Below, in pieces: positions 63-50,890 of a stretch of 64,000 nt of DNA. The notes beneath the pieces were generated by a model. That model ran no database searches. It saw nothing but the letters and a program-made list of their open reading frames with translations, and had not been told where the DNA came from. The position numbers were made by a program, and so were the translations under genes. Location: positions 310,001 to 374,000 of the forward strand of contig NW_025767455.1 in assembly GCF_003918875.1 (NCBI RefSeq), written 5' to 3'. The DNA comes from Haliotis rubra (taxonomy: Eukaryota). Every line of letters begins with the position of its first letter. Position 1 is the stretch's first letter.

Positions 63-3000
63 TCAGTCTGCGTCAGGAAGACCGCTGCCGGTGCTGATAG
101 ATGGATATAACGCAGGTCGGTAGGTTCCATCCTCGTGCATGTCTTTATGAATTGTCACATCATGTTCCCCGTATGTTGGATTCTGAAACGTAGCATCCTG
201 TTCGACATCCAGATCCACAAAGCGGGCGCTGTGGCGCTGTTTGTACTTCTCCACCACTGGCTCACGGGAGCTTCGAAAGGGGTCCGCCTGAAGGCCAACC
301 ATTGTGAAGTAACGTAAACAATATATTTTACATCTTCAGTCTTGTTCCATTTTGATTTCATTTATTCGTATTCAAAAACCCAGATAAAAATATTACAATT
401 GTCGAATGGTGATACGTTGGCCGCTGTAATCAGTATGCGCCGATGTACCCACAATATGAACGTTGTGGGTAGGTAGACGGCATGTGGGTATTGTACCCAT
501 ACAGATGTTGTACCCGACTTGTAGTCATTGTACACGCCACGCTGACATTGTACCCAACATGGCGGTTGTACCAGCACGTGTATATGCTCCTCGACATTCA
601 AAATACAAAACGTTCACAGGTTTCTAAATATGTCATGTCCACAAACACATTCACTCCACCTACCTTCTGTACCAAATAAAAGCAGCGACGACTACAACGA
701 CGACAAGAACTCCAACTACAATGCCAACTATTAGGCCAACTGGAGTCGCCGACTTGGGCTGGAAGACAGACATACACGAAAGGTTAGTATAACAAAACAC
801 CTCCTACATCGTCCGTTTGGGAACACGTTTTGCGATTTACAACTACAGCTATGTTACACCGTTAGAATTATGTGTGCCAAAAGAGGTACAAAGTGAGACC
901 ATAAATCTAAGTCATACATGATCGCAACCAAGCTGAAACAACGAGGATCTGCCTGACAAACCAATAATCATTATCAATGTACATCAAGGATTCGAACCCA
1001 CGATTATAGGATCATGGGTCGCCAAAGGGACACAATTCTGAACAACACCTGGCCATCTTTACCACATAACCGGGTTACATTAGTTACAAGCATTCATAAT
1101 AGTAGAACTCCTGAAGATGCGGGTTAGAATTGATCTTCAGTACTGACTGACTGAGTTTGGTTTTAGGTCGCTTTTAGCAATATTCCAGCAACATCACGGC
1201 GGGTGATCTTCAGTAATCCATGCTTGTTGTAAGAGGCGACTAACGGGATCGGGTGGTCAAACTTGGTTGACACATGTGACAGTTGCGTTGATCGATGCTC
1301 ATGACGTTGATCACTGGATTGTCTGGTCGAGACTCTATTTATTTACTGACCGCCACCATATAGCTGGAATATTGCGGAGTGCGGCGTAAAACTAAATTCA
1401 CTCACAATAGAAGACAACATCGGACACATACCTCAGGTTTTGACATCCTCAGTTCCTCTACCGATCCTTTGTATACATTGTATGGCATTGAATGTTCCAG
1501 GTAGTCTTTGGACACGGAGAAGGTTGAAGCTGGTGGTGATGTCAATCGCATTGTCACCTCAGTGATCTCCTCTCTGTAAACGAAAACCAGATCAATCTTC
1601 CAGGAAATCTTCTATACCTCAATACCTCATGCTCTGAGGTAGCCATGTATACACTTAAAAATGTATTTAACCAAAAACGTACAAACGCTATCACAACGTT
1701 ACTAGGCTGAAAGGGGCGGTAGGGTTGCCTTGTGGTTCAAGCCTTTGCTCGTCACGCCAAAGCCCTGTTCGATTCCCCAAATGGGTACAAGTTGCGATCC
1801 CCACTTCTGGTGTCAATATAGTGCTGTAATATTGCTAAAAGCAGCGTACAACAATTCTTATTCACACTATACTGCAAACGTATGATACCAATCAACTTAT
1901 TAGAAAAACGAGTGAGTGAGTTTTACGCCGCACTCAGCAATATTCCAGCTATGTGGCGGCGGTTTGTAAATAAACGAGTCTGGACCAGACCATCCAGTGA
2001 TCAACAGCATGAACATCGATCTGCGCAATTGGAAATCGATGACATGTGTCAACCAAGTCAGCGAGCCTGACCACCCAATCCCGTTAGTCGCCTCTTACGA
2101 CAAGCATGGGTTACTGAAGATCAATATTCTAACCCGGATCTTCACGGGTTTCAAAAAACGAGGTTTCACAAAACAATTATACGTTTCTCAAAAGAAGAAT
2201 ATTTCACCTACCCTGCACTGTCATATAGTTGTTTCAGGCTGATAAAAATCTGTATACTTGAAGGATTTACGTTCTGTAGCCTTGAAGCAATATCTGACTG
2301 AAGAGTTGATTTGAGATCAGGAATTATGATCTTCTTGTAGGATACCTTCACGTACACTGTCACGGTTTCTCCTAAAGAGGTAAATAAAATATTTTTATAG
2401 ACATTGTATATAATTATTAATATCTAATTAATTTATTGAACATATTTTATGGTTTTGAGATGTTAATACCATTGAATATACTTTATTACAACCTAACTTT
2501 CTTATTCATGTCAGTGGATACAGGGCGCATTGGATCGTATACAATTATACTGTACACCATTTTCAAGAAAACATGGGATAAAAGATGTGGACAAAGGCTA
2601 AAACTAATGTGTCTAAATAATAATGTGTTTAACATACGCCTTGGAATACCATTAAGCTTCAGTTAAATAGGTTACATAGATCAGACCATTTATAGAGACT
2701 TTGTGTTCTTGTTTTGTCCCAAGAAGTTTTCAACCAGATGAATGTTCTTTAGAGATTAGTTTCGGTTCTTTATTAAAAACTGAAATGTAGAATATTTTTC
2801 ATTTGAAATTAAAATGAGTTAAAATAAGTTTTTGTCGTTGATGCCCATAGGACCTAGTGTCCATGATTTGATTTCAAATGGCAAACTATAATTGATATTG
2901 TTCTCCAGGCGTGTTCATAAAGATTTCACATGATGGCTTCAAGATAAACATGCATAACAGATTCTGGTTAATTTTCACAAATGTTATCACCAGCAATATT

Positions 3001-6000
3001 CACTACAAAAGATTCTGTTTTGGTACAGATAATAATGTAAAATAATCTACACTATAAATAGTATTTTCCACCAAGAGATAGTAGTAGTAGTGAGTAGTAG
3101 TAATGTGCTGCCGTTTATGAAAACTACGTTTAAGTGTTTCATAGTAGAGCCTAATATTTACCATTCTATTATATTAAAAATACCCTTTATGCTGCGCATA
3201 GGTTTTAGACAACCCAAAGGAATCTTGCTCTGTGCATTGTAGACATTCTTAATGCTTTTATACCTTTCATGGATATAGGTAAGAACATTAGACCAGTGGC
3301 TTAATAAGAGTGGTTCTGATAAAATATCTTCATTAAGTATAGTTCTCACTACTGTACCTGTTGTAGGATTCCTTGTTGGCGCTTTTGTTGACGTGGAATG
3401 TTCAGATGAAGATTGTGTGTGATGGACAGAGTGAGTAGATTCTCCGGCAGTACCGGACGTCGATGCAGAGGGTGAAGGCCGACTGGGAGATACAGATTCA
3501 CCTGCACCTGGACTTGTGGACACAATTGAAGTAGATGACCCTCTTGATGTCGTTCTACCAGGTTGGATGCTTGTTGGTGTACGGCTGCTTGTTTGGGGGC
3601 TCATGGGTGTTCCTGAAGACTGCGTTGTAGGAGACGGCTCTCCTGATGTCGCGCTACTATGCTGGGGACTTGTTGCTGTGCGGCTGCTTGTTTGGGGTCT
3701 CATGGGTGTTCCTGATGTTGTGCTTCTATGGAGAGGGTTTGTTGCTGTAGGTCTGCTGGTTTTGGAGGTCATTGGTGTTCCTGAAGATTGCTTTGAAGTG
3801 GATGGCTTGAAGGATGTTGATGTGTGCGAGGTCAGTGAGACAAATGTTGATAACGTTGGCGTTGGTGTCTGAAATGAAAGATCAATTGTTGTTAAAACTT
3901 CGATGTTGTATATTGTTTTTTTTTTTTCACTCAGCACGTGTCCAGCTCAATGACAGCGGTTTGTAAATAGGCGAGTCTGGACCAGACATAACAGTGATTG
4001 GCATCATCGATCTTCAAAATTGGGATGCGATGATCAACCGAATCTGATCACACGATCCCATTAGTCGCCTCTTACGACGATCTAATCTGGAGGTTAATGA
4101 CAATGTGATTGCAGCAGACCGGGATGAAATTACGTATACCTACCTTCTTAGATGTTGAAGTTATCTTTGGTGAGGTTTCGGTGCTTCTTGGCCTTTGGGA
4201 TGTGGTTCCTTTTGTTGATGGAATCGATTTTGGTGTTGTCTTTGCTGAGGTTTCGGTGCTTCTTGGCCTTTGGGATGTGGTTCTTTTGTTGATGAAATCG
4301 ATTTTGGTGTTGTCTTTGTTGAGGTTTCGGTGCTTCTTGGCCTTTTGGGTGTGGTTCTTTTTGTTGATGAAATCGACTTTGGTGTTGTCTTTGTTGAGGT
4401 TTCGGTGCTTTTTGGCCTTTTGGGTGTGGTTCTTTTTGTTGATGAAATCGACTTTGGTGTTGTCTTTGTTGCGGCTTCGGTGCTTCTTGGCCTTTTGGGT
4501 GTGGTTCTTTTTGTTGATGAAATCGACTTTGGTGTTGTCTTTGTTGCGGCTTCGGTGCTTTTTGGCCTTTTGGGTGTGGTTCTTTTTGTTGATGAAATCG
4601 ACTTTGGTGTTGTCTTTGTTGAGGTTTCGGTGCTTTTTGGCCTTTTGGGTGTGGTTCTTTTTGTTGATGAAATCGACTTTGGTGTTGTCTTTGTTGCGGC
4701 TTCGGTGCTTTTCAATTTTTGGGACGTGGTTCGTCTTGTAGATAGTATTATTGGAGATGATATATTAACAGAATGCGCTGTTCCACGAGTGGCCCCAGGC
4801 GTTGTCTTCTGGCCATTAGTGGTTGTGGACTTTACAGTTGTTTGGGCCTTCTTGACTGTTGTTGGTTTCACTGATAATGTCTTCGGCTTATTAGGCGTTA
4901 TCGAAGATGTCTTTGCTGTCGTCGATGTCACAGTGGATGGTTTTTGTGTTGATGTTGATATTCTTTGTTTTGTCGTACCTAAAGAATATAATCCATACAG
5001 CTTCATGACAATACTTGAGAATAAAGTAGAACACACTGCAGCAAATGAAATGCATACACATAATAATAAAATAAATGAGCTAAACTATAGCCATTCACAC
5101 TTGATGTTACGAATCACACAATGGTGTAAGTATCAGGGAATCAAATTTGCAAATTTCAAACAGTATATTCTGATTTTGTATATTTTTACCGTGAATAAAG
5201 AACATTAAATCTGGTTAATTCTCACTTATTAATCTAGTCGATGTAGCGGCTGACGTTGAGGTAGTTGCCTTGATTGTCGACGTTGATAGGAGTAATATTT
5301 CACAGCGTGAACCTGCAATAGTAGAACAGGAATGTAGAAAGCATTATGATGGTAACAGATCAATAGAATTCAGCCAATAACCACTTGAACAGTTCACCGT
5401 TAATAAAGAAAATACCAGACCGATCTGGTGATGGTACAGTACGGTTTTGTATTTTGATATTTCTTTGCTATAGACGTTCGACTCAAAATAAGATTGTCAG
5501 GTAGGAGTTTCAGGAAAGTGAATTGAAATCCACATGGAATGCCTACCCTTAAATCCAGATGTACAGGAACAGGTGACCATTGATCCAGTAAAATGGCATG
5601 TTCCTTGATTCAGACAAGGGTTCTTTGTACATGGGGTGGTCTCACAATGTGTACCATTAAATCCAGATTTACAGGAACAGGTGGCTTTCGATCCAACAAC
5701 ATGACACGTTCCTTGATTCAGACATGGAATCTTAAATGTACAGGTGGGTGCAAGTTCTCACAATGTGTGTTCCGTTAAATCCAGATTTACAGGAACAGGT
5801 GACCTTTGTTCCAGTAAAACGGCACGTTCCTTGATTCTGACATGGATTCTTTGTACACGGGGTGGTCTCACAATGTGTACCGTTATATCCAGATTTACAG
5901 GAACAGGTGGCTATCGATCCAACAACATGACACGTTCCTTGATTCAGACATGGATTCTTTGTACAGGGAGTGGTCTCACAATGTGTACCGTTATATCCAG

Positions 6001-9000
6001 ATTTACAGGAACAGGTGGCTATCGATCCAACAACATGACACGTTCCTTGATTCTGACATGGATTCTTTGTACATGGACTGGTCTCACAATGTGGTCCGTT
6101 AAATCCAGATTTACAGGAACAGGTGACCTTTGTTCCAGTAAAACTGCAAGTTCCATTGTTCTGACATGGATTCTTTGTACAAGGGTTTTTCTCACAATGT
6201 GGTCCGTTAAATCCAGATTTACAGGAGCATGTGACATTTGTTCCAGTAAAACTGCAAGTTCCATGATTCTGACATGGATTCTTTGTACATGGGTGGTCTC
6301 ACAATGTGGTCCGTTAAATCCAGATTTACAGGAACAGGTGACCTTTGATCCAGTAAAACGGCACGTTCCTTGATTCTGACATGGATTCTTTGTACATGGA
6401 GTGGTCTCACAATGTGTACCGTTATATCCAGATTTACAGGAACAGGTGGCTATCGATCCAACAACATGACACGTTCCCTGATTCTGACATGGATTCTTTG
6501 TACAGGGGGTGGTCTCACAATGTGTACCGTTATATCCAGATTTACAGGAACAGGTGGCTATCGATCCAACAACATGACACGTTCCTTCGTTCCGACATGG
6601 ATTCTTTGTACATGGACTGGTCTCACAATGTGTTCCGTTAAATCCAGATTTACAGGAACAGGTGACCTTTGTTCCAGTAAAACTGCAAGTTCCATTGTTC
6701 TGACATGGATTCTTTGTACAAGGGTTTTTCTCACAATGTGTTCCGTTAAATCCAGATTTACAGGAGCATGTGACATTTGTTCCAGTAAAACTGCAAGTTC
6801 CATTGATTCTGACATGGATTCTTTGTACAGGGGGTGGTCTCACAATGTGTACCGTTAAAACCAGATTTACAGGAACAGGTGGTGACCTTTGTTCCTGATT
6901 CTGACATGGATTCTTTGTAATGGGGTGGTCTCACAATGTGGTCCAATCCGTTCCTTGATTCTGACATGGATTCTTTGTACACGGGGTGGCCTCACAATGT
7001 GTACCGTTAAATCCAGATTTACAGGAACATGTTGCTTTCGACCCTACAATATGACATGTTCCTTGATTCTGACATGGAAACTTGGTACAGGGGGCGGTCT
7101 CACAATGTGGTCCGTTAAATCCAGATTTACAGGAACAGGTGACCTTTGATCCAGTAAAACGGCACGTTCCTTGATTCTGACATGGATTCTTTGTACATGG
7201 AGTGGTCTCACAATGTGTACCGTTATATCCAGATTTACAGGAACAGGTGGCTATCGATCCAACAACATGACACGTTCCTTGGTTCTGACATGGATTCTTT
7301 GTACAGGGGGTGGTCTCACAATGTGTACCTTTATATCCAGATTTACAGGAACAGGTGGCTATCGATCCAACAACATGACACGTTCCTTCGTTCCGACATG
7401 GATTCTTTGTACATGGACTGGTCTCACAATGTGGTCCGTTAAATCCAGATTTACAGGAACAGGTGACCTTTGTTCCAGTAAAACTGCAAGTTCCATTGTT
7501 CTGACATGGATTCTTTGTACAAGGGTTTTTCTCACAATATGGTCCGTTAAATCCAGATTTACAGGAGCATGTGACCTTTGTTCCAGTAAAACTGCAAGTT
7601 CCATGGTTCTGACATGGATTCTTTGTACAGGGGGTGGTCTCACAATGTGTACCATTAAAACCAGATTTACAGGAACAGGTGACCTTTGTTCCAGTAAAAC
7701 TGCACGTTCCTTGATTCTGACATGGATTCTTTGTACACGGGGTGGCCTCACAATGTGTACCGTTAAATCCAGATTTACAGGAACAGGTGACCTTTGATCC
7801 AGTAAAACGGCACGTTCCTTGATTCTGACATGGATTCTTTGTACATGGAGTGGTCTCACAATGTGTACCATTAAATCCAGATTTACAGGAGCATGTTGCT
7901 TTCGACCCTACAATATGACATGTTCCTTGATTCTGACATGGATTCTTGATACAGAGGGTGGTGTCACAATGTACACCACTAAATCCAGATGGACAGGAAC
8001 AATTGAATGTTGACCCTACTACGACACACTTTCCTCCGTTGTGGCAGGCAACGTTGTGACACGGTGTTTGTTGGCAGGAACTTCCGGTATAACCTGACAA
8101 ATACATGAAAAGCATGCAGTTCAAGAATATGTCTTGAAAACTTAAATAATGGAAAAATAACGATTTTAACATGCGAGTAGATTTATAGAATTAAACAAAA
8201 TAAGTTCATAGATAGTGTAATGGCTTGTAAAATTATATCTAGTTTTTTCAGTATGTTTTTAAAGGCAAAGACGGAAAGACACTGACAATGCACTATCAAA
8301 CACTCACAGCATTGTACTGGTTTAAAGTCCGGCTTAATGGCAGTAAATATTAAATTCCTAATCTGTAGAAGTTTAATTGTGATGTCACTTCCGGTTCCGA
8401 TGAATCTGCCAATAATCATCATCACGAACCTTTACATTATGTAAGTGGTATTCAACAGTTTGGTTCAGAAGCTTTGTTTTTGATTTGCTAAATGATGCCA
8501 TCACTTCCAGATCTGGATTAGGTTCACTGAGGGCTGGATGATGCCATCGAAGCACAGTATTACAAACACATGTCATGTCGAGCTACGCAATATATTTGTA
8601 CTCAGGTTGCACAGCTTTCCTTAAATTGTCTCATATTTATTTGTATCTATCTATCTATCTATCTATCGTGCAGTTCCAGTGGACAAGCGGTAATACGGTG
8701 ATAAGGTGGAGGAGATGATGATGGTTCTGTTTCATAGACTTCTAAGATTACATTCCGTACAATAACATTGGTTACAGTTTGCGCAGCTCTTAGATCGATT
8801 TGTGGCACAAAGTCTTGTCGAAGGGGAAGCAGCGTGAGATCATGGGAAACACGGATGAGAATGACGTTTGTGAATATTAAATATTTGTCATGGAAGGACT
8901 CTGAAGTATTAATTTACAAATCTCACAATAAAATAAACCTTTAACCTAAACATATAGGGAGACAGGCTTTTAAAGTACAGTTAGTAGTAGGCCATGCACC

Positions 9001-11399
9001 ACAACCAAAAAACAAGTCATGTCTACATTGCTCGGAACAAGATTAGGAGGAGGTTAAAAAAATTGGGTTTAACTTCGCTTTCAAGATTATTGCACTTTCG
9101 TATTGACGTATTTCGTATCCCAATTTATACCTGTGTCACAGTACTAGCCCAAGTCCCACTTCATTATCTGTATCCAACTGAAGCAAATTATGTTGACTCT
9201 GGGACAACCAATAATTATTTTACCCTCAAAACCGACCGTAGGCTGGGTAATAACAAATACCACGTTTAACGTCTTTTATTGTGACGTGGCCGGGATTCGA
9301 ACCACCAACCTTCAGCTCTCAAGGCTGACACTGTATCTGCCAGACCATGGAGATGATGGATGTACAGTAGGACTCATAGATAGTTAACTATAGGGTTAAC
9401 GATGGGAGCAAAATGTTTAGCGCTAAGTAGCCTTACAGTCTGTCTATTGTACCAAACAAATATCACATTTTCACGTTAACAGGCTACACGCGCGTTTCAA
9501 ACTCCGTGAAAGAGATTCCCGGATATAAAACTACACTATCAATCAGGTGTTCAAGAAGTGAGAGGTTTTCTCAATGTTCAACGCAATCAATCAGGATCAA
9601 GTACTGCGTTACTGAGAAACCTTAATGTCGATGGCATATTCAGGACATTAAGTATATCTTCAGTTGGCATGTCTGTCTTTAGTTCAGGTGTAACTTGACT
9701 ATGTGTAACATACCTTTAATGCAGTGTTTTGACCCATCCGGGCCACATGTGTAGTGGTCAGCTGAGCCTGGGTTACACAGGACAGAACAGTTCGGTCCAT
9801 AGTAGTGGGGGTCACAGGTCACAGTGATGGTCAGTGTTAATCTGAAATGTGGAGTCACCCATATTGACATTGCTTGTAGTGGCAGATATTGCATGTACAG
9901 GGTATAAGTCGTTCCTGAACATGTATATCATGATAATTCAAACATAATAGCAAGAGAATATATAGTTCCGATTACTAGTATCTGCCAAAAGAGATTCTAT
10001 CGGGTGTAAAAAGCAAACTAACGAAGAAAATGTTTTGAGTGGATAACATAAAGTTAAAATCCGTGTGAGATGGACCTATTTATATAGATATAGTGTGGGA
10101 TACAGAGCGAGACGAGAACACTCTTAGAGAAAATATTGCTGTAGTCACGCACCTTGCATGGCTGTCGGTAAGCGTGACGTTAGCACCATTGTGAGACGAC
10201 GGTAGAGGGGTCTTCAAGTCATCCAGAGGAAGAGGTGTTGATGACAACCAGTAATCATCACCCACTTTGACCTCAACCTCCGCACCTGTCTGAACAAATA
10301 CAGTTTCTGTTTGATTACGGAGTTCACTGATACACAAGTATAAAGCAGTTTCAACTCGATCACCTTACGTTCCCGTTCTGCTTGTCTTAGTGTAAGTGAG
10401 TAGTATTTTATGCCATTTATATACCCTTGATATCACGGCAGTGGGACACCATAAATATGCTTCACACCTAGGCTTCAGTATGTGCATAAATAAATAAATT
10501 CACTCTTGTCAATATTTAAGTGTTACCTTGTTTCTATCAGAAAAAGTGTTCAAGTTGAGTATTTAAGTTTCATTCGTGGACCACCTTTTTTGTACACTGT
10601 TTACTGTTACTGAGAAAGAATGCATAACATGGTATACTTTAGCTGTAGGTGTAAACGTCATGGGCTAAATAGCTTCAGTATTGACTTTCAGGCGGCACGA
10701 CTAGATCGCTAAATTTACCTGTAACGCAGTAAACGACTTGACGATGGGATTGGCTATCCCGCCGTTAATGCTCGTCCCAAATTTGGCATCCCTCGTGCCC
10801 TTGTACTGGTCACTCGTCTTTGTACAGGAACTGTGACAAAATAATGAGACACCTTCACACTCTCAAAATACGATCGGTTGTTGTCGGTCATAATTGGGAA
10901 GTCGTACATTTACAATTGTCTGTACCTCACGAGAAACGCCTCTTTCTACCATCTTCAGCAACGTCAGTGTATATAGTAAAATATGCGTTAGATGACTTTT
11001 CCTAATGATTGTAGACAATGGCCTAGTAGAACTTCAAGGTTGTTTACCTTCAGATTAGACTTTGATGTGTGGTAAAACAACTTACTCTTTGCCGGACAAC
11101 CCCTTGAAACAGACGGTGAACAGTAGGTCACAGGGATGAGATGAGAACAAGCTTCCTTTGCATCCTGCATCTGATGACCTGTGATACTCCAGCAGATGTA
11201 CAGACACTCTCCCGCTGCCGGTACTGGGCTGTCGGGGAGAGACGTCGACACATGAGACAGCAACACCCAAATTTGCAATTATTGCATGTTTACAAACATG
11301 TTTCTGAAATGAACCTTAACGGCTAAATGGAATCTTGTCACGTACCTCAAAGCAGTTAGCAAACATAAAAACGACCAAAAGGTAGTTCCACTTCCACAT
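63..11399 (-). CDS. Gene 1: membrane-bound Delta-like/mucin hybrid (SP-MNNL/C2-DSL-~24 EGF-mucin-SEA-like?-TM-NPxY tail), ~1700 aa
   Basis: GT-AG exons: 11346-11399 (MWKWNYLLVVFMFANCFE), 11086-11228, 10719-10830, 10153-10289 (MNNL/C2-like), 9714-9841 (DSL), 5547-8093 (EGF array), 5226-5312, 4144-4978, 3358-3868 (mucin), 2212-2371, 1432-1573, 664-758 (TM GLIVGIVVGVLVVVVVVAAFIW), 63-287 (tail). Phases are consistent except for indels in the EGF array, a 1-nt homopolymer loss at ~4284 and a 1-nt discrepancy near 279-282. Confidence 0.85.
664..758 (-). CDS. Gene 1 transmembrane exon
   Basis: ttccag|PKSATPVGLIVGIVVGVLVVVVVVAAFIWYRR|gtaggt: hydrophobic helix followed by basic stop-transfer residues. 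Confidence 0.85.
1110..1405 (+). mobile_element. SINE-like family B copy (CATGCTTGTCGTAAGAGGCGACTAA core)
   Basis: Same sequence recurs at ~1912-2149(-), ~3930-4085(-), ~13660-13895, ~18555-18657(-), ~30995-31168, ~35065-35300 and ~53335-53508. Simple-repeat tail. Confidence 0.75.
1710..1865 (+). mobile_element. tRNA-derived SINE family A, degenerate copy
   Basis: Similar to the full copy at 34796-34965; B-box-like GTTCGATTCC. Confidence 0.7.
1912..2149 (-). mobile_element. SINE-like family B copy
   Basis: Reverse complement of the family at 1110-1405. Confidence 0.75.
4160..4715 (-). repeat. Coding 75-bp mucin VNTR (~7 copies, TKTTPKSISSTKRTTPKRPKSTETS)
   Basis: Units recur at 4232, 4306, 4381, 4456, 4531, 4606 and 4681, inside exon 4144-4978. 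Confidence 0.95.
5547..8093 (-). repeat. Coding tandem array of ~24 EGF-like repeats (108 bp / 36 aa) in one exon
   Basis: Unit TPCTKNPCQNQGTCxxxGSKVTCSCKSGFNGTHCET. Frameshifted or garbled near 5730-5770, ~6290, ~6805 and 6870-6950. Confidence 0.95.
9714..11228 (-). CDS. Gene 1 exons 2-5: Notch-ligand N-terminal (MNNL/C2-like) and DSL domains
   Basis: SGRVSVHLLEY..GC..PCDLLFTVCFK and NPIVKSF match the MNNL pattern. CDPHYYGPNCSVLCNPGSADHYTCGPDGSKHCIKGYTGSSC has DSL cysteine spacing. Confidence 0.85.
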
Positions 11400-15090: not shown

Positions 15091-15204
15091 CGTTGTATGT
15101 TTGTGTGTGTGTGTGTGCGTGTGTGTGTATTTATGTGACTTAAAATCTTAACTCACTAACTCACATTTCGTATCTATGTGTTATAGAAGATAACATACAT
15201 TATA

Positions 15205-20310: not shown

Positions 20311-23300
20311 ATGTGGAGTTTGAGCTACATGCTTGTTGTGATTTTCTTGTTTGTTTATTTGTTTAAGGTAAGTAAATAGGTAACATTTTTCTGTTCGGTA
20401 TCAATGTCGAATGCTGTTTTTAATTTTTTAAATTGTGTACATCTAATTCTGCATCTAATCATATGCAAACCTCACTCCGCGACAGCCCAGTACCAGCAGC
20501 GGGCGTGCGGCTGTACATCTGCTGGAGTATCACAGGTCATCAGATACAGGATGCAAAGGAAGCTTGTTGTCATCTAATGTCTGTGACCTACTGTTCACCA
20601 TCTGTTTCCAAGGGTTGTCCGGCAAAGAGTAAGTCGTTTTACCACACATCAAAGTCTACTCTGAAGGCGAACAACTTTGACGTTCGATTAAATCCATTGT
20701 CTACAACCATTGAAAGAACATTTATGTTTAATGCATATAAACTATATAATTTAACACTGGTGAAGATGTACAATGGTGCAAAATAGAAGCTTTTCTTGTT
20801 AGGTACGGATTGAACATGTACCACTTTCGAGTTAAGATATGCCGCGCACAGGTCTCAGGTACATCATCATTCAGGCATTTCATCACATCACATGGAATCA
20901 GCACAGATCGTATATGATCCTCTATACATTTGAAGAGTGTGTTAGTTTCATGATTTTATCACAGTTCCTGCACAAAGACGAGTGACATGTACAAAGCAAC
21001 GAGGGATGTCAAATTTGGGACAAGCATTAATGGCGGGATAGCCAATCCCATCCTCAAGTCGTTCACTGCCTTACAGGTACATTTAATTAACTGGTCGTGT
21101 CGCTTAAAAGTCAGTAGTGAAGCTATTTAACTCGTGACATCTCATTTACACCTAAGATATTACCATGTTATGCATGTTACATTCTATGCATGTTTTAGCA
21201 TTAATGATTGGCTACAATACACAGTGTGTAAATTCAAACAACGAATCAAACTTAAATATGGTGTTCAGCAATCTGATTTTTCTTTGATGTTTAACGCCGC
21301 ACTCAGCAATATTCCAGCTATAGTTCTTAGAGAACCAAGATGATTCGTAAATATTGTCAAGAGTGAACCTATCTTGTCAGGCTCACACTGAACAGGCTGC
21401 AGTAGCCCCAGGGCAAATGTCGTATTTAGTTATTCATAATACCAAGGTTTGATTCCTTAAACGGATGTACCGTGTGATGCCTTTTGATGATGCCCTTCCG
21501 CCGTGATATCACTAGTGTATTTGTTACAGTGAATGTGTGAAACCAGGGATTTCACATAATCCCTAAAAGAGTCAGTGATTTCGTTAAATCCTTGTTACTC
21601 CCAGGGATTTCATGTATTCCCCAACATTTCAGGGATTTCATGAAATTCCTGAAATATTATCTCAGGGATTTCATGAAATCCCGGTAAGCCTTTATTGAAA
21701 TAGAGAACACCAAATTTATAATGCGAGTACAGAGTATATGCTGATGAAATTCATTTGTTTGGACACGATAGACTGTTATCATACAAGCTATTACACTTCA
21801 GTATCACTTTAAAACATTTACAACGTATCGATTTACATTGGTTAGGACCACAGTAACATTTCTGGAAACCCTGACCACCACAATTCTACTCGAAAAATCA
21901 CAGCTGTGTGGAGGAACAGTTCTTTGTCCATTGTCACATCATTCGTAGAGAGAAGACGCTGAGGACAAACATGAAATAAGTGCTTTGAAAAATACCTTTT
22001 CCTTCCCAATGGCCTAATCTGTTTATACTTAAACGTAATGGTGACTGGTCTTGATGTTTCACCAATATAGGATTCGCTGCAGTCGCATTCTGTCTGGTAG
22101 ACGACACCTGCAGGATCTGGCTTCTTTGCCGGGTGGGTCTGCCTGTGGCAAAGAAGCCAGATCCATTAGGATCAAAGAACACCAGGCCTCTGTAAGAAAA
22201 ACAGACTCTAAATCCTCCATAACCGACCACCTTAAAGCCAAGCCAACCCAAACCACAACATCAGTTGGAACACCACCACAGGCACCGAGAGGAACCAGCC
22301 TGATTTAAAAAACCCGAAAACTACTTGAAGCTGTCCACATAAAGAAGATTTGTCCATATGTCCAGCCATCAACAGAGATGAAGTATCTTTCATCTCCAAG
22401 GCCTATAATCACCTGCTCAATTAATTTCATGTAACCCTACTCAACCATTGTACAATATCCATTGTGTTACACTGTACATTATCCATTGTGTAAACATCAC
22501 TTCACTACTGGCTTCCCAACAGTCCCTTTATCACTTATGTAAACAACCTATGTATATCATTCCCTACTGGCTGCCCATCAACATCCTTAATCTCTTATGT
22601 ATACAACCATGTGCATGTTCTTTACTGGCTTCCTATCAACCTACTTAATCCTGTGTTATCAACCTCCCCTATTGTATAAACAACTCATTTTCGCCTCAGC
22701 CCTCATCTATTGTACAAAAATCTCATGTATATATATCACCCAAATTACTTCCCATGTAACGTCCAAACGTTAAACATCCAATTTCGTCGTCGTCGTCCCA
22801 TGTACCACTTGCTTGACAACGACATTAGAATCTATGTCGAAACGTCGCCTATATAGAATAAAGAAGTTGTATATCCCTAAAAACAGTCCTCATTCTTCAT
22901 CTACCCAACTTCTACAATGCCAATCAAAGAAAGATGTATACAAATTTGCAGTACGCTTTTTAGGAATATGAAGGCAGGTTTTGGCGGATAAAAACGATAC
23001 ACCTGGACAAGTTTACGCGAAATCCCTGGTTTCACACATTCCTTGTAACATATTAACGGCAAAAAATACCTACTCATGCACATTAAGACATGCAAAACGA
23101 GGATGATCGAGTGGAAACTACATCATACTGGTTAACAAAGTAATTAAACAGAAATTGTATTTGTTCAGACAGGTGCGGAGGTTGAGGTCAAAGTGGGTGA
23201 TGATTACTGGTTGTCATCAACACCTCTTCCTCTGGATGACTTGAAGATCCCTCTACCGCCGTCTCACAATGGTGCTACCGTCACGCTTACCAACAGCCAT

Positions 23301-26300
23301 GCAAGGTGCGTGACTACAGCAATATTTGCTCTAAGAGTGTTCTCGTCTCGCTCTGTATCCCACTCTACATCTATATAAAGAGGTCTATCTTACACAGATT
23401 TTAACATTATGTTTTATCCATTCAAAACATTTTCTTCTTAAGTCTGCCTTTAACGTCCGACTGAAACTCTTAGAGCAGATACTATATATTCTTTTGCCAT
23501 GACATTTTGAATTGTCATGTGTAAACATGTTCAGGAACGACTTATACCTTGTACATCAATATCTGCCACTACAAGAAATGTCAATATGGGTGACTCCACA
23601 TTACAGATTAACACTGACCATCACTGTGACCTGTGACCCCCACTACTATGGACCGAACTGTTCTGTCCTGTGTAACCCAGGGTCAGCTGACCACTACACG
23701 TGTGGCCCGGACGGGTTAAAACACTGCATTAAAGGTATGTTACATAAGCTCAAGTCACACCTGAACTAAAGACAGGCATGCCGACAACTGAACATGCCTT
23801 CGACATTAACGTTTCTTAAAAACGAAGTTCTTACCTCAGATGTATTGTACTAGACACTGAGAAAGCCTCGCACTTCTTTAACACTTAATTAAAATATGTA
23901 AGGCTATCCAGGGATGTCTTTCACGTAATTTGAATCGCGCGTATAGCATGTTATCGTGAAAATGTTATATTTGTTTGGTACAACATGCATAGACTGCCAG
24001 GCTACATAGCGCTACACATTTTGCTCCCATCGTTAACCCTCTTGTCAGTGTCTAAGGGTTGCACTGTACAGCCACCGTCTCAGTGCTCTAGGGGATAGAG
24101 TGTCTGCTTGGAGAGCGAATGGCTTCGTTTCGATATATATGTTCACTATGAAAGGCTTTCAAACGTGGTATGTGTTGTTACCTTGCCATGTTCTCATTAT
24201 TGAGGGTAAAACAGATATTGCTTGTCCCAAAGTCAGCATTATTTGCCTCAGATGGATACAGAAGTGTAAACATCACTATGACACAGGCATAGTGCAAACT
24301 CCGCACGCACACACACACGCAAGCACGTCAATACGAAAGTGCAATGTCTCGAAATCGAAGTTAAACCTCATATTTTCCTCACTGAATCTTTGGTGCACGA
24401 CAAGGTAGACTTGACTTGGTTGCTGGGCATGGTCTATAGCCAAGTACTAACTATGGTTTAAAAGTCTGTCTCTATATATTTAACTAAAGGGGCTTAAGGG
24501 TCCTTCTCTGGCATATATTTAAAAAAACTACAAGGGTGTTTCCATCTTCCCTGTTTCCGATGGAAGTAAAATCTTCCGTAGTTTCGTCTTCGACAAGATC
24601 TGCACATATCTAAATCAATGTTAATGTACAGGATGTGAACCCATCTTAGAGATTGTCTAGGTGGTAGAGCACATACCTGCCATCTTCTTCACCTTATGTC
24701 TATATCATCTCCAGTCCATTCATCCCTCAGTGAACTTAATACTGACTGGAAAGTAATGGCATAAGTTAGGACATCTAAGGAACAAATTAAAACAAGGCTT
24801 TCTACAACACGTTAGTGGCACCATAATGATTATTTACAAGGATTATTCAGGACGTAAAGTGACACCACAATTAATCTTCTAGAGATTGGGGATTTAGCAT
24901 CTACAGTCATTATGTCAGACTTTAAACTAGTACAATGTTGTCAGTGTTCGATAACGCATAGTCGGTCTCTTTCATTGTTTACCTTTACAAGCATAGTGAA
25001 AAAGCTAGATATATTTAAAGTAAGTCATCACATCGCATGTATGTACGATGCATGCATATACATGTATTTTGTTTAACTCTATAAATCTACTCACATGTTA
25101 AAATCTTAATGATTTAAGTTATGCAAATGGAATATGCTTGAATCTAGATGCTTTCTCTGTAATTTTCAGGCTATACCGGAAGTGCTTGCCAACAAACACC
25201 GTGCCACAACGTTGCCTGCCATAACGGAGGAATGTGTGTTGTAGTAGGGTCAACATTCAACTGTTCCTGTCCATCTGGATTTAGTGGTGTACATTGTGAG
25301 ACCACACCTTGTACAAATAATTCATGTCAGAACCAAGGAACGTGTCATGTTGTTGGATCGATAGCCACCTGTTCTTGTAAATCTGGATTTAATGGTACAC
25401 ATTGTGAGACCAACCCCTGTACAAAGAACCCATGTCAGAATCAAGGAACGTGCCGTTTTACTGGATCAAAGGTCACCTGTTCCTGTAAAACTGGATTTAA
25501 TGGTACACATTGTGAGACCACACCCTGTACAAAGAATCCATGTCAGAATCAGGGAACGTGTCATGTTGTTGGGTCGAAAGCTACCTGTTCCTGTAGGTCT
25601 GGATTTAATGGTACACATTGTGAGACCACCCCCTGTACAAAGAATCCATGTCAGAATCAAGGAACGTGCCGTTTTACTGGATCAAAGGTCACCTGTTCCT
25701 GTAAATCTGGATTTAACGGTACACATTGTGAGACCACACCTTGTACAAAGAATCCATGCCAGAATCAAGGAACGTGCCGTTTTACTGGATCAAAGGTCAC
25801 CTGTTCCTGTAAATCTGGATTTAACGGTACACATTGTGAGACCACACCTTGTACAAAGAATCCATGCCAGAATCAAGGAACGTGCCGTTTTACTGGATCA
25901 AAGGTTACCTGTTCTTGCAAGTCTGGATTTAACGGACCACTTTGTGAGACCACCCCGTGTACAAAGAATCCATGTCAGAATCAAGGAACGTGCAGTTTTA
26001 CTGAATCAAAGGTCACCTGTTCTTGCAAATCTGGATTTAACGGTACACATTGTGAGACCACCCCCTGTACAAAGAATCCATGTCAGAATCAAGGAACGTG
26101 TCTTGTTGCTGGATCGGAAGTCACATGTTCCTGCAAATCTGGATTTAATGGTACACATTGTGAAACCACCCCCTGTACAAAGAATCCATGTCAGAATCAA
26201 GGAACGTGCCGTTTTACTGGATCAAAGGTCACCTGTTCTTGCAAATCTGGATTTAACGATACACATTGTGAGACCACCCCCTGTACAAAGAATCCATGTC

Positions 26301-29300
26301 AGAACCAGGGAACATGTCATGTTGTTGGGTCGAAAGCTACCTGTTCCTGTAAATCTGGTTTTAATGGTACACATTGTGAGACCACACCCTGTACAAAGAA
26401 CCCATGTCAGAATCAAGGAACGTGCATGTTTACTGGATCAAAGGTCACCTGTTTCTGCAGGTCTGGATTTAACGGTACACATTGTGAGACCACCCCCTGT
26501 ACAAAGAATCCATGTCAGAATCAAGGAACGTGTCATGTTGCTGGATCGGAAGTCACATGTTCCTGCAAATCTGGATTTAACGGTACACATTGTGAAACCA
26601 CCCCCTGTACAAAGAATCCATGTCAGAATCAAGGAACGTGTCATTTTACTGTTTCAATGGTCACCTGCTCTTGTCGTCCTGGATATAAAGGTACGCAATA
26701 GGCATGTGACCACGATATACCTTTGATAATATGTCAGATAAGATGGTTTCAAAGTAAATATCAAAGATGGTTTCAAATAAAAATCCTTATCAAGAGATAG
26801 CATCAACTTTGTAGATATCAGCGATGTCTTTACGTTCTTACGCCAGTTATTACGCTGTATTAATTGCTCTTTGTGTTTTGGGTTTCTTTAATACCATTAA
26901 GTAATTATTCTGTTATTCAGGAATGTACTGTGATGTTCTGTCAAACACAAAGGAAGTCACTCCATCAATGGCAGCATCATCAACAGACCGGACTCTTCCA
27001 CATCTTCCTACTCCAACAGGTATCAGTTTAAACAAGTAAACTTTAAATTTACCTGTCAAGGTGGAAATGATAACTGACAAAGTTGAACCTTCATAGGATC
27101 AAGTTTCCAGGCCATTACTTAAAATAGGCTAGACCCAAGTAGGTTCCAGGCGCGTGATTATATAATGATTGAATATAAAATCATGGCTTCTATATGTACT
27201 AATAAATCTGTGAAAAGTAACATCATGATGGCAATTACAACCTCAATCATATACTGTAGTGTGTGTATATCACACAGGTCACAGCCGCCCACAAACCACA
27301 GCCAGATTAATTTTGCCACACAGCGTCTTACAGGGAGCATACTACCACTCGTGAAATACTAGTTCCGCTTGTAAACATTATTGCCATATTTGTCAATGTT
27401 GTGTGAATGTGTGTAAAATATGGCCCCCATAAATGAACTATTTGGGACACTGTTATAATGGAACTGTGGCAGTCAGAAGTGTGTCTCGTATATTCACTTT
27501 CAAAAAGGTAAAATCTCGAAAGTTATAATTTCAGAGAAAAACAAGCTGAAGATTGACCAAACCATTTGCACGATACAATTTATCCTCATCATAACGGGGA
27601 AAGACCTGAAAAAAAGACCGGAGACTAATGTCCCTTTATGTTTTGCTTCTGTATTTGCAGGTTGTCCCCACAACATCAGTAACTGTGAGTTAGCGGAGTG
27701 TCCAGATCTGACCTCTGTCCGATGTGTCCGGTGTCGGGCTGGTTACACACAGGTTGAGGGACGCTGCATGAGTAAGTTCAAAATATAATTGAAAACAAAA
27801 TGCAATTTAGAAATAATACAGTTTTCAATGCTAATATCGCCTAATTGGGTGATAATTCATTGTGGATAGTTGTGCACAGTATCTATTAGACTCAGCCGGC
27901 CATTGGTTCGAAACCTCGATTCCTTTCGATTGCGATCATGGTTATGCATGGCTTCCTTCAAATAAAGACTACAGTTCTCGATGTAACTGAGATAATGTTA
28001 TGAACATATAAAGCCACCTAACGTGTGTTGTATTACTTTGCGGAGCCTACAAAATCTCAGTTCTTGAGAAGACGACTTTTCAATCAAACCCGGAGTGACT
28101 ATGAGTACTGATGAATTATGTTTCAGCGTGTCCAACCCGCACCCCTATCCTGCATTGTGAGGAGGAACAATCAGTCGACTGTCTCTTCAGATGGTGCAAC
28201 AGGTGCGAGCAGGGATTCTACCGGGAAGCTGCTGCTTGTGAGGGTGAGGCTTCCTTATAACTCGCATTCTTCTAAATACACCATCTAACTTTCTTCAATG
28301 TATACAGATGTCTCAGGAAAAACATGTCAACAGGCGTTTAATGATACGATTGACAATATGTCTTGACATCCAACACAGTGTGTCCCCGTCTACACGCCGG
28401 ATGTCGTGATCACGTCTGCTCCTCCGCTGATGACGTCAGGTGTGTTAGATGTCAACCGGGTTTCTTCCTGACCGGGAACACCTGTAAAGGTAAACTATAT
28501 GTTCAACTACCTTTTGTGTTTATGTTTGTGGAATAAATATACCACGGAGGCCAAATACCTTAACACATCAATTCCATATGTGCTCTTCCAGAATGTCCTT
28601 CCCCAAACCCAATGTGCAACGAATTCACCTGTAGTGACTCCACTGACGTCACATGCACCAAGTGCAAAGATGGATTCCTGGAAGTAGACGGCCAGTGTCT
28701 TCGTGAGTTATTTCAGCTGAAACACAACGTTATGCTTACAAGCCTGTTCTGACAACAACTAATACTGAGAGTATGCTATATAGATAGTGTGAGAGAGGGG
28801 TGGTTTAACTCAGATTTGAACAGAAGTCCAGTTATGTGAAGGTGTGTTAGCATACTTTGGGACGAAAGAAACACACGACTCCCCCATCTACCATTTCGGT
28901 GAATATCATCGATATGGTGCTGACAAACCGAGAATCATAATCGCAGCGGACGGGATCTGCACAGCGATGAGAATACGTTGCATCGGGTAACCAAAACAAT
29001 TTCGCATCATCAGCAAGCACTTGTAGCAATGGTAACGTTTTCAGATGTTCCTTTTAAAACTTATTATCAGAATGATAACGAACTTCTCTTTGGCGCAAGG
29101 GTGCCACGACCACAATGCCTTCTGTTGTCTGATTTCTTTTGCTGCAGTGTGTCCATCCACGGGCCTGATCCCTGACTGCGTAGACGTTGCCAGAGACGGC
29201 TGCTTTAAAAACTGGTGCAGGAAGTGTGCTCCCGGCTTCTTCATCAGCGGGACAGCTTGTGATGGTAAAACAGTTATCCTTTCGACCTGTAAATGGTACA

Positions 29301-31447
29301 ATGCCCCGAAAGCTGACGTTTAATGGTTCTTAGAATCTTTTTCCACTTCGTTGTTGCTTAGCATTATAAAAGGTCCATGCCAGAAACGTAGGAGTGTCCG
29401 AAACGAAAACCCGTACACAAAAAGCCAACACAATGATCCAAACTCCACCCGGAAACTAAACGCAGAGCAGTATCTATTGAACAATGCATAGATGTCTTCC
29501 AGTAATGATTATGAAGCTTCACGTTGATTATCCGATCTGCGCGAGCCTGCCCCTTCAAACTCTTCAGAATATAGAAATACCTGAAAATGCCACCCACTGC
29601 TCTTTATATACTAAGCAGCAAAAGAAACGTCAGTTTGGAATTTTCCGTCGCAGAAACGGATAACTGTAAACTCATTTAATGTTTGTTTTGTATATTTTTG
29701 ACAACATCTCCAACTTTACCTGAGCAAAGACATTCCTTCCCAAACTCAGAATGGAACCCAGGAAATGGTCTCAAAAACGCAACCTGATCTCGGAGATGGT
29801 ACCGTGTTCTCCATGTTTTTCATGCAACTCATGCTAAATGTGCTGTTCACAAGGACCAGCCCTATAAAATGCACTCCAAACCTGGCTGAAACATTCACAT
29901 TATCAACGTCAGCAGAATGCCGCGACACACGACAGCTGAGAAGAACCAGGCGCTAGGAAGACTTGGCCACACTGCACAAGCCGTTGCCAATCACTTAGCA
30001 GGTCAACGTTAGGACCATATACAGGCTGCATATGACGACGTGGCCAGCGTTACTCAGACCAATGTGTTATGGAAAGAGACTAATGGGGAGGTGCAAGCAT
30101 CATGGTATAGGGTGGAATAGGCCTGAACCAGAGAGTGGGTCATGTGGTGTTCCAGAACCTTGGACCAGGGAGAGGAGGCGGCATCACAGCGATGCGCTAC
30201 ATCGACCAAGCTCTCAGACCCCACGTCATACCACAGTTCGCACGTCACCGGAACAACATTTTCCAGCATGATAACGCCCGGGCCCATACTGCCAGAGCTA
30301 CACGGGACTTCCCACAGCAGACTGGTGTCAACATTATGCAGTGGCCAGCCCTTAGTCCTGATTTAAACCCAATTGAACATCTTTGGGATAAAATTCAGAG
30401 GAGACTAAATAATGTCATACCAAGGCCGAACACAGCCGATTTATTGCGCTAGGCCTTTCTCAGAGTCTTGAAATTGTCTTGAGTTATTCATTGATGTGTC
30501 AAGATATTGTACACAAAAAATGTTTTTGATCCGCTTATTATGTCCATTTCTGTAATGATTTGATTACAATGCCTATCTAAGTTTGAATTCGTACTTACGT
30601 TTTTTTTTGCTGCTGAGTATATTATGACGTTAAAAAGTACATTAGCTCTTCCGACGCACACCTAGTGTCATCATTTTCAGTGATCGATCCATATACTTTT
30701 CATTACTATAACACCCCTTACACAAAAGAGAAATCTGTTCTAAGGATAGTCAAGGCTGAGTATTCTTTGGCGTTTCAGAAATATGCCAAAGCCTCACCTG
30801 CCGAAATTATATCAATTAACATACTTTTCCACTTTATTCTTTTCAAAGAGTCCATTTTTCAGTCTGCCCCCCACCTGGTGTAGGCTGTCAACTTGCTGAA
30901 TGTAATTCTACCCAAGACTCGCGCTGTGTCACATGTTTCCATGGCTACGACTTAAAGGGTGGAATCTGCAGTGAGTAGTTGTTATTCCATAGTTCGACTA
31001 ACGGGGATCGGGTGGTCAGTCTCGCTGACTTGGATGACACATGTCATCGTATCCCAATTGCATAGATCGATGCTCATATTGTTGATCACTGGATTGTCTG
31101 ATCATGACTAGATTATCATCATACCGCCTCAATATAGCTGGAATATTGCTTAGAGCTGCGTTAAACAAACTATACCACTTGCATATTAAAACAGTTTATT
31201 AAAATCGTGAGTTTCACATTTCTTGTGTAGATTGTAATGATACAAGCACACTTGTTTTCCAGCACATTCCCATGGCAACGAATCAGTTACTTCCTCTACT
31301 CAGTGCGTGGACAACCCACACGTCGACTGTGCTTCTCTACACGCATCTCTCAACGTCTGCTCAGAACCGACTACGGCCTGTGAATACTGCCCTCGATACT
31401 GCCACATGTGCAACACGTGCACTCAGGGTGTGCCTATCATTGGCTGA
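20311..31447 (+). CDS. Gene 2: secreted Delta-like protein (SP-MNNL/C2-DSL-14 EGF-6 furin-like Cys-rich-ShKT), 1018 aa
   Basis: 14 GT-AG exons, all in phase, total 3057 nt: 20311-20367, 20486-20628, 20965-21076, 23169-23305, 23607-23734, 25170-26690, 26921-27019, 27661-27771, 28127-28243, 28379-28489, 28592-28702, 29148-29264, 30863-30970, 31263-31447. No TM segment. AATAAA at 31754. Confidence 0.9.
22000..22900 (+). mobile_element. Penelope-like element fragment (GIY-YIG) nested in the Ginger-like element
   Basis: GVVYQTECDCSESYIGET on the minus strand and RIKEHQASVRK..S.I.DHL on the plus strand; PLE-type 3' region. Copy at ~44190-45780. Confidence 0.75.
22811..22848 (+). ncRNA. Candidate minimal hammerhead ribozyme (Penelope-associated)
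   Basis: TTGACAA core (U3-A8 variant), stem II GACAT/ATGTC, GAAAC-GTC. Second copy at 45684-45721. Confidence 0.5.
25170..26690 (+). repeat. Gene 2 EGF exon: 14 EGF-like repeats, 108-bp period
   Basis: Uninterrupted ORF 25232-26701; exon 1521 nt; last Cys supplied by the next exon. Confidence 0.95.
27661..30970 (+). CDS. Gene 2 exons 8-13: six furin-like / growth-factor-receptor-type Cys-rich modules
   Basis: Each phase 1-1 exon (108-117 nt) encodes CP-x-C-x-C-x-CxxCxxG(F/Y)x5-C, e.g. CPRLHAGCRDHVCSSADDVRCVRCQPGFFLTGNTC. Confidence 0.8.
29609..30619 (+). mobile_element. Tc1-like element in gene 2 intron 12
   Basis: TIRs TACT(A/C)AGCAGCAAAA, TA TSD, FQHDNARAH and WPALSPDLNPIEHLW motifs. Empty site in gene 3 at ~52933. 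Confidence 0.9.
31263..31447 (+). CDS. Gene 2 last exon: ShKT-like domain
   Basis: CVDNPHVDCASLHASLNVCSEPTTACEYCPRYCHMC fits ShKT spacing (CxD..C..C..CPxxCxxC); ends NTCTQGVPIIG*. Confidence 0.8.
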
Positions 31448-50333: not shown

Positions 50334-50694
50334 ATGGTGAGGTGAGGTGAAATTGGGGTTTAAAGTCGTGCTTGAGAATATATCGCTCATATGACGACGT
50401 GCATGCGTGTGTATGTGTTTGTGCGGCTGCTTGTACTAGCCCAGACTGAAGCTGGTTTTATAGTGCTAGCCCACTGGGATACCATGCCGCAGTGAAGCAT
50501 GAATACCCCACTCAGACACATTATACTGACTCCGAGCCGACCAGTCTTTGTTGTACCCATTAATGCCGAGCGCCAGGCAGAGACCAACAAGTACCATATT
50601 GTAACGTCATTTGGTATGACTCGGTCTGGGATCGAACCCGCGACCTTCCGCTCTCCGGGCGGACGCTCTAACCACTACACCACGGAGGCGGTCC
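50334..50694 (-). mobile_element. tRNA-derived SINE family C
   Basis: tRNA-like head with GGTTCGATCCC, (CACCT)n tail, near-perfect TSD TGGTAAC(T/C)ACA. Degenerate relatives at ~9140-9355 and ~24080-24290. Confidence 0.8.
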
Positions 50695-50890
50695 TGGTAA
50701 CCACAAACTATTTAGGGGCGGTGGGGTAGACTAGTGGTTAAAGCGTTGGCTTGTCACGCCGAAGACGCGGGTTCGAATCCCCACATGGGTACAATGTGTG
50801 AAGCCCATTTCTGGTGTCCCCCGCCGTGATATTGCTAAAAGCGGCGTAAAACTAAACTCAGTCAGTCAGTCAGTCAGTCAGTATAAACTA

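What the first reader, a model, noticed from the sequence alone, without database searches (positions are those of the whole stretch)
9714..9841. DSL domain has lost the canonical Notch-binding face
Jagged1/Delta carry C..FCRPRDDxFGHY.C (Jagged1 F199, R201, R203, D205, F207). All three paralogs have CSVLCNPGSADHYTC: F to L, both Arg lost and a 2-residue deletion, with all six Cys and YYG kept. The fold is conserved but specificity has probably changed, or the protein relies on C2-type lipid binding.
Basis: partly seen in the sequence, partly recalled or inferred. Interest (0 to 1): 0.7.

Follow-up and report, generated by a model that had tools for sequence, protein, structure and literature searches.

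The report
Delta-like trio lacking Notch-binding sites
Three neighbouring abalone genes keep the predicted shape of a Notch ligand's head but lack the sequence motifs that true ligands use to grip Notch, while the animal's ordinary Delta and Jagged genes lie elsewhere, so these are likely not Notch activators but long, probably sugar-coated surface or secreted proteins that would use their tip to bind membranes.

Summary
9714-9841 (minus strand) is exactly one AG..GT exon encoding a DSL domain (Pfam 36.7 bits, cut-off 24.2). Three tandem copies share a 9-residue loop (canonical 11) with 0 of the 5 Jagged1 face residues. Two corrections: F199>L is not diagnostic (human DLL4 and this genome's Delta2-like ligand have L), and this is not the animal's Delta. 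The genome has three canonical ligands and one Notch. Only 4 of 45 DSL matches keep the F207 equivalent.

The C2 loop that binds Notch EGF12 is also shortened, and the DOS motif is missing. Copy A is signal-C2-DSL-about 23 EGF-mucin stalk-TM-NPxY tail, with frameshifts in its repeats. Copy B is an intact 985-aa, predicted-secreted protein ending in Cys-rich repeats and an ShK-like domain. The head is under purifying selection (dN/dS about 0.3) and has relatives in H. rufescens and Gigantopelta.

Best reading: a Notch-independent, C2-tipped glycoprotein rod (0.55). Rival: a DLL3-like Notch modulator (0.2). DSL/Delta-like expansions in lophotrochozoans are published; I did not find the loss of both sites described. 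No binding or expression data.

The parts
9714..9841 (-). Copy A exon 5: last C2 strand and divergent DSL domain (five of six Cys; 9-residue C3-C4 loop). The finding itself.
11346..11399 (-). Copy A exon 1: ATG and hydrophobic N-terminus, a likely signal peptide (judged by eye)
10153..11228 (-). Copy A exons 2-4 (11086-11228, 10719-10830, 10153-10289): C2 (MNNL-like) domain with a shortened beta2-beta3 loop; Asp at both Jagged calcium-ligand positions by alignment
   Evidence: fold from the copy C head:
5547..8093 (-). Copy A exon 6: sixth DSL Cys and an array of about 23 ordinary EGF repeats (108-nt unit), no DOS motif; 5 of 22 spacings are irregular and shift the frame as assembled
3358..5312 (-). 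Copy A Ser/Thr-rich stalk: short exon from 5312 (donor not fixed), 4144-4978 (75-nt repeats, one 1-nt slip in an A run) and 3358-3868 (50% Ser+Thr)
1432..2371 (-). Copy A juxtamembrane domain of about 100 aa (exons 2212-2371, 1432-1573); no Pfam hit; matches Gigantopelta P0055 (E 4e-7 among the session's proteins)
664..758 (-). Copy A transmembrane exon, followed by basic residues
63..287 (-). Likely last exon of copy A: cytoplasmic tail with an FxNPxY motif. Its junction to the TM exon is out of phase as drawn, so a small exon may be missing.
   Evidence: P0055 has FENPIF after its TM
20311..31447 (+). Copy B: intact 13-exon, 985-aa model, all introns GT-AG: signal, C2, divergent DSL (23607-23734), about 14 EGF (25170-26690), six Cys-rich repeats, ShK-like end (31263-31447); no TM seen
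42131..53791 (+). Copy C: B-type gene with divergent DSL (46475-46602), extra partial copies of C2 exons (about 42.7-43.2 kb), an EGF exon cut short near 48163 and a 1-nt slip in an A run near 52530; broken as assembled

Best explanation
These are members of a gastropod Delta-like subfamily that lack the motifs of both known Notch-contact sites and are likely not Notch activators; they would instead act as long, predicted-glycosylated rods whose C2 tip likely binds membrane lipid, probably with calcium, while the DSL domain is likely kept as a structural spacer. Shown by sequence or tools: exon structure; three copies; C2-DSL-EGF architecture; loss of the DSL face, the C2 loop motif and DOS; an intact B; a TM and NPxY motif in A; purifying selection; canonical ligands and one Notch elsewhere. 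Predicted: the C2 fold, secretion of B, and N- and O-glycosylation. Inferred and untested: no Notch activation; calcium and lipid binding; A capturing membranes or particles at a distance and being internalised through NPxY, with B as its soluble counterpart at a mucosal or haemolymph surface.
For: DSL site: 0 of 5 face residues, against 3-4 of 5 in the host's three canonical ligands. F207A alone drops Jagged1-Notch binding to background and R203K reduces it (passages of PMC3888931, and PMC5538765). C2 site: the beta2-beta3 loop that binds Notch EGF12 has 9 residues between the Cys (FKGLSGKDS), against 13 with an [HE][YF]Q motif in all three host ligands and 12 in DLL4. EGF1-2 are ordinary EGFs; the Delta2-like locus has a DOS-type exon. 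One NOD match in the genome; its putative EGF11-12 exon has Notch fragments as best PDB hits, so there is no sign of a second, co-evolved receptor. Fold: Foldseek top hits DLL4, DLL1, Jagged1 (E about 1e-14), then cPLA2, E-Syt and perforin C2; VIA Z 13.8, rmsd 2.2 A over 121 residues to E-Syt1 C2A. Asp aligns with Jagged1 D72, and an Asp pair sits at the D140 position (register within one residue), beside an exposed YWL. Selection: head dN/dS 0.31 (A-B) and 0.33 (A-C), p about 2-4e-5; DSL alone 0.12 (p 0.01) and 0.22 (p 0.06). Tree: trio plus H. rufescens (98/99) join two Gigantopelta proteins (99/98), apart from the canonical clade (99/97). Glycosylation motifs: O-fucose consensus (broad form, recalled) in 18 of 19 complete repeats of A and 11 of 12 of B; N-glycan sequon in 15 of 19 and 11 of 12. 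Precedent: DLK1 binds ACVR2B and not Notch (abstract start only).
Against: No binding, lipid or expression data exist here. DLL3 cannot bind Notch in trans but inhibits it in cis. C. elegans DSL ligands lack DOS and still engage LIN-12. Swapping contact residues between DLL1 and DLL4 changed little in vivo, so contact residues are not the whole story. The DSL is the best-conserved part among the copies (3 of 42 positions vary, against 27 of 139 in C2), which fits a new protein partner as well as a spacer. B-C dN/dS is 0.72 (p 0.45). A and C are frameshifted as assembled. Faster C2 change reached significance in only 1 of 3 non-independent pairs (p 0.009, 0.06, 0.69). Calcium ligands are hard to predict from sequence in this family. 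The junction to A's NPxY exon is unresolved.
Confidence: 0.55

Rival explanations
1. DLL3-like or DSL-only Notch modulator: it cannot activate Notch in trans but dampens or tunes it, in cis (A) or as a soluble competitor (B), possibly through EGF repeats or O-fucose.
For: DLL3 interacts with and inhibits Notch in cis and needs O-fucose in vivo. Nearly every repeat here carries an O-fucose consensus. DOS-less DSL ligands work with partners in C. elegans. The DSL is under purifying selection.
Against: Both known contact sites are altered. A 14-23 EGF rod with a mucin stalk or an ShK-like end is unlike DLL3. At least 41 non-canonical DSL matches face one Notch.
Confidence: 0.2
2. New protein partner: the altered DSL face binds a receptor or ligand other than Notch, and the C2 is secondary.
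For: The new loop is nearly fixed across the copies and H. rufescens (31-33 of 42 DSL residues identical), and the ADHYTC end is shared with Gigantopelta. DLK1-ACVR2B is a precedent (abstract start).
Against: No candidate partner was identified. The loop is small, Pro/Gly-rich and differs across the wider family.
Confidence: 0.12
3. Decaying duplicates with no current function.
For: A has 5 irregular spacings in its EGF array and one slip in the mucin exon; C is truncated and frameshifted. B-C dN/dS does not differ from 1.
Against: B is an intact 985-aa model. A against B or C shows dN/dS about 0.3. The breaks lie in tandem repeats or A runs, where assembly errors are common (inference). Relatives with the same layouts exist in H. 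rufescens (four annotated isoforms) and Gigantopelta.
Confidence: 0.07
4. Ordinary activating Notch ligand despite the divergence.
For: The C2-DSL-EGF-TM layout of A and its predicted fold match Notch ligands. Divergent nematode ligands signal.
Against: The F207 and R203 equivalents are absent, the C2 loop is shortened and DOS is missing. The host has one conventional-looking Notch and three canonical ligands.
Confidence: 0.06

Closest known systems
Canonical Delta/Serrate/Jagged ligands (DLL1, DLL4, Jagged1; molluscan Delta1, Delta2, Jagged of He et al. 2021, PMC8166818)
   Same: Signal-C2-DSL-EGF order, six-Cys DSL, predicted fold; a TM in copy A
   Different: 0 of 5 DSL face residues, 2-residue deletion, short C2 beta2-beta3 loop, no DOS, 14-23 near-identical EGFs, mucin stalk or Cys-rich/ShK-like tail, extra introns in C2 and DSL, separate clade
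Lophotrochozoan 'Delta-like' and 'DSL-like' genes (Gazave et al. 2017, PMC5356439; DSL+EGF group of He et al. 2021, 19 DSL domains counted in H. discus hannai)
   Same: DSL+EGF genes outside the Delta and Jagged clades, lineage-specific expansion. By Gazave's definitions these would be 'DSL-like' (extra domains).
   Different: In the passages and one supplement I read, these papers classify by domains only. I saw no residue-level analysis of the Notch sites and no mucin/NPxY or ShK-like architectures.
Mammalian DLL3
   Same: Divergent DSL-family member lacking DOS, with O-fucose sites
   Different: DLL3 is a short, Golgi-resident, single-copy cis-inhibitor. These are long, tandemly duplicated, and one form is predicted secreted. 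No cis effect has been tested.
Lipid-binding C2 domains (cPLA2, extended synaptotagmin, perforin, Munc13)
   Same: Fold match Z 11.8-13.8, rmsd 2.2-2.5 A; acidic residues in the apex loops
   Different: 9-16% identity; extracellular and fused to DSL-EGF; binding untested

Membership tests
DSL domain superfamily | Pfam DSL above the curated cut-off, with six Cys | tested here: met
   36.7 bits for the exon, 45.4 for P0001, cut-off 24.2; sixth Cys in the next exon
Canonical Delta/Jagged ligand | N-terminal C2 (MNNL) domain | tested here: met
   No Pfam MNNL hit, but a C2 fold by model and fold search and Atlas nearest clusters MNNL+DSL at 0.95
Canonical Delta/Jagged ligand | DSL Notch face F199/R201/R203/D205/F207 on an 11-residue loop | tested here: not met
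   0 of 5 and a 9-residue loop; host ligands keep 3-4 of 5
Canonical Delta/Jagged ligand | Long C2 beta2-beta3 loop for Notch EGF12 | tested here: not met
   9 residues without the [HE][YF]Q motif, against 13 with it in host ligands and 12 in DLL4
Canonical Delta/Jagged ligand | DOS motif (atypical EGF1-2) | tested here: not met
   EGF1-2 are ordinary 36-aa repeats; a DOS-type exon follows L003. DLL3 and LAG-2 also lack DOS.
Canonical Delta/Jagged ligand | Falls in the Delta/Jagged clade | tested here: not met
   Separate starred clades in a 21-row C2-DSL tree; backbone unresolved, midpoint root only
Canonical Delta/Jagged ligand | Binds and activates Notch in trans | not testable with these tools
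   Needs binding and reporter assays
Jagged/Serrate | VWC domain before the TM | tested here: not met
   A has a mucin stalk and a Cys-free juxtamembrane domain; B has no TM
Lophotrochozoan DSL-like genes (Gazave 2017) | DSL protein with at least one additional domain | tested here: met
   Cys-rich repeats and ShK-like end in B; definition read
DLL3-type cis-inhibitor | Cis interaction with and inhibition of Notch; Golgi residence | not testable with these tools
   Cell assays needed
Calcium/lipid-binding C2 | Asp at the calcium-ligand positions (Jagged1 D72, D140) | tested here: inconclusive
   D72 equivalent present in A, B and C; Asp pair at the D140 position with register uncertain by one residue; no binding test
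ShK (ShKT) domain | Pfam ShK above the cut-off | tested here: inconclusive
   16.4 and 15.9 bits, cut-off 20.9, full-length match 1-37

The most novel reading that the evidence does not exclude
The C2-DSL head is not only a Notch-ligand module. In molluscs it has been redeployed as the tip of a large Notch-independent family of membrane-sensing receptors that outnumber true ligands more than ten to one, and this locus holds a membrane/endocytic form and a secreted ShK-tailed form of one such sensor, built by exon shuffling.
Probability: 0.3. Interest if true: 0.7.

Novelty: new variant of a known kind. Interest (0 to 1): 0.36.

Why it matters
Automatic annotation calls these genes 'delta-like protein 4' or 'Notch homolog', which inflates Notch-pathway counts in mollusc genomes; here 41 of 45 DSL matches lack the key Phe. 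If the best reading holds, they are natural versions of the ligand head with Notch binding removed. They would allow a direct test of what C2-lipid binding does on its own, and of whether the C2-DSL module has a life outside Notch signalling.

Tried and rejected
Complex prediction, copy C head against the host's putative Notch EGF11-12 exon: no answer, score 0.00 in both runs. The Notch piece lacked its first and last Cys, the alignment was not used and no controls were folded; not evidence either way.

Expression: no RNA holder listed. Two contig runs of one sample were laid; they do not span the repeat arrays, so the frameshifts in A and C could not be checked.

Homologue searches: the cytoplasmic exon found nothing among 41 candidates. 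The C2-DSL of P0002 found only itself and a fly Delta. The representative search was dominated by EGF hits; only the best 150 of 5,778 were seen, so family sampling is thin. Two of the intended rows (P0099, P0048) dropped out of the tree because the pattern did not match them. The loop regex mis-split 6 of 45 DSL matches (extra Cys, contig C1112); I read these by eye and none has the F207 equivalent. Pfam gave no SEA hit for A's juxtamembrane domain, so I do not call it SEA. Positive selection on C2 is not shown.

Literature: three look-ups for the primary structure papers (Luca 2015, Cordle 2008) were not held; I used PMC3415683, PMC3888931 and PMC5538765 instead. Searches that found no description of this subfamily: (0 papers). 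Subscription papers, and figure S1 of He et al. (a picture), were not seen. Earlier findings: none.

Rejected: chance match, assembly artefact for the deletion, an altered true Delta, and F>L as a sign of loss.

Full report
OBSERVATION. The coordinates mark one minus-strand exon of 128 nt with canonical splice sites. It encodes a DSL domain above Pfam's cut-off (36.7 bits). The same C3-C4 loop occurs in three copies in the window. Against the PDB sequences of Jagged1, Jagged2, DLL1 and DLL4, the loop is two residues short and lacks the R201, R203, D205 and F207 equivalents; those residues are named as the Notch face in passages of PMC3415683. The sixth Cys is in the next exon. F199>L means little: DLL4 has Leu there and Lys at 201.

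ORGANISM AND CONTEXT. The named homologues are Haliotis proteins. P0001 matches my spliced head of copy C by eye, so it may not be independent. P0002-P0005 are four H. rufescens isoforms. The genome gives 45 DSL matches (150 of 395 candidates scored, a lower bound). Three lie downstream of strong MNNL exons on the same contigs and keep the 11-residue loop with FGH and 3-4 of the 5 residues. One is Jagged-like by best PDB hit. This fits the Delta1, Delta2 and Jagged set listed for H. discus hannai by He et al. 2021 (passages and supplement); my Delta1/Delta2 labels rest on that fit and on the tree. A fourth match, 11 kb before the window (L006), keeps R203 and F207. The other 41 lack the F207 equivalent (6 of them read by eye); 24 form one near-identical cluster on four contigs, some perhaps haplotype duplicates. 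There is one NOD match, and its putative EGF11-12 exon matches Notch fragments best. So this is not an altered Delta but one of many non-canonical DSL genes beside an intact pathway.

ANATOMY. Copy A (minus, 63-11399): signal, C2, DSL, about 23 EGF repeats, Ser/Thr-rich stalk, a juxtamembrane domain of about 100 aa, TM, and a likely tail with FxNPxY. The EGF and mucin repeats carry frameshifts as assembled, and the last junction is unresolved. Gigantopelta P0055 has the same layout, and its juxtamembrane region matches A's (E 4e-7; named). Copy B (plus, 20311-31447) splices into an intact 985-aa frame with all GT-AG introns: signal, C2, DSL, about 14 EGF, six Cys-rich repeats and an ShK-like end below the Pfam cut-off, with no TM. 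H. rufescens P0002 ends the same way. Copy C is B-like but broken as assembled.

SECOND SITE. The model of P0001 (pLDDT 74, 8-row alignment) matches DLL4, DLL1 and Jagged1 first and lipid-binding C2 domains next. Notch ligands bind EGF12 through a long disulphide-held beta2-beta3 loop of the C2 domain (passage of PMC5538765). That loop has 13 residues with [HE][YF]Q in the three host ligands and 9 residues without it in the trio. EGF1-2 are not of DOS type. An Asp aligns with Jagged1's calcium ligand D72, and an Asp pair lies at D140 (ligands from PMC3888931). This supports calcium and lipid binding but does not show it.

SELECTION AND AGE. Across 245 codons of the head, dN/dS is 0.31 (A-B) and 0.33 (A-C), p about 2-4e-5; B-C is 0.72, not significant (Nei-Gojobori). 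The DSL varies at 3 of 42 positions and the C2 at 27 of 139; the contrast is significant in 1 of 3 pairs only. In a 21-row tree the trio and P0002 group with two Gigantopelta proteins (99/98), apart from the canonical ligands (99/97); the backbone is open. Relatives with variously degenerate loops occur in other snails, octopus, a bivalve, a flatworm and echinoderms.

MECHANISM. Best reading (0.55): a Notch-independent rod. The signal peptide would send it out of the cell. The EGF array, rich in O-fucose and N-glycan motifs (the broad O-fucose consensus is recalled), and the mucin stalk would hold the head far from the cell. The C2 tip would bind lipid. A would be internalised through NPxY (motif function recalled) and B would act in solution. 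The architecture is shown; the binding steps are inferred. Rivals: DLL3-like modulation (0.2; passages of PMC4391858 and PMC2504490), a new protein partner for the DSL (0.12), decay (0.07), normal ligand (0.06). Passages of PMC6202052 caution that contact residues alone do not fix ligand behaviour.

KNOWN AND NEW. Delta-like and DSL-like genes of lophotrochozoans, and the expansion of DSL domains, are published (passages of PMC5356439 and PMC8166818, and one supplement counting 19 DSL domains in H. discus hannai). In my searches I found no account of the loss of both Notch sites or of the membrane/secreted pair; subscription papers and one picture-only supplement were not seen. All papers were read as passages, except PMC12216052 (abstract start in a listing). 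Verdict: a real feature, a variant of a known class, with function untested. Interest 0.36.

Noticed in passing
G000:C2565:297400-302200 (L006, L043), about 8-12 kb before the window, minus strand: A fourth Delta-like gene with introns placed like the trio's but a near-canonical DSL (R203 and F207 equivalents kept, 11-residue loop). Its place in the tree is weak (long branch).
   Followed up: partly
G000 contigs C2070, C2325, C2247, C1493 (for example L014, L017, L019-L025, L027-L029): At least 24 near-identical DSL exons with a 10-residue His-rich loop: a much larger Delta-like expansion than the trio. Gene structures were not examined.
   Followed up: no
G000:C1112 (L004, L005, L008, L009, L015, L018): DSL domains with an extra Cys in the loop; three of them lie in one 633-aa open frame. 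Tandem-DSL proteins were described by He et al. for bivalves only (DSL without EGF).
   Followed up: no
window 12158-21141 versus 33188-43689, and 21511-32068 versus 43678-54379: Copies B and C lie in a direct segmental duplication of about 21 kb (mostly 87-96% identity); copy A is an older inverted copy (about 79-89%).
   Followed up: partly
window 56920-58941 (-): A 673-aa open frame that looks by eye like the end of a non-LTR retrotransposon reverse transcriptase; not searched.
   Followed up: no
window 14554-14955 (-), 36005-36406 (-), about 29700-30450 (+): Tc1/mariner-like transposase fragments (judged by eye), one inside an intron of copy B.
   Followed up: no
window 17385-17870 and 38850-39677: A minisatellite with a unit of about 32 or 64 nt, present in both halves of the duplication.
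   Followed up: no
L001 (G000:C1668:1655111-1655245) and L039: The host's Jagged-like ligand has His at the R203 position and Lys at the calcium-ligand D72 position, so even the canonical ligands deviate from the vertebrate motif.
   Followed up: partly
P0004 and P0005 (H. rufescens isoforms): Their N-termini begin with a repeated piece of a C2 exon, which suggests partial exon duplications like those in copy C at 42.7-43.2 kb.
   Followed up: no
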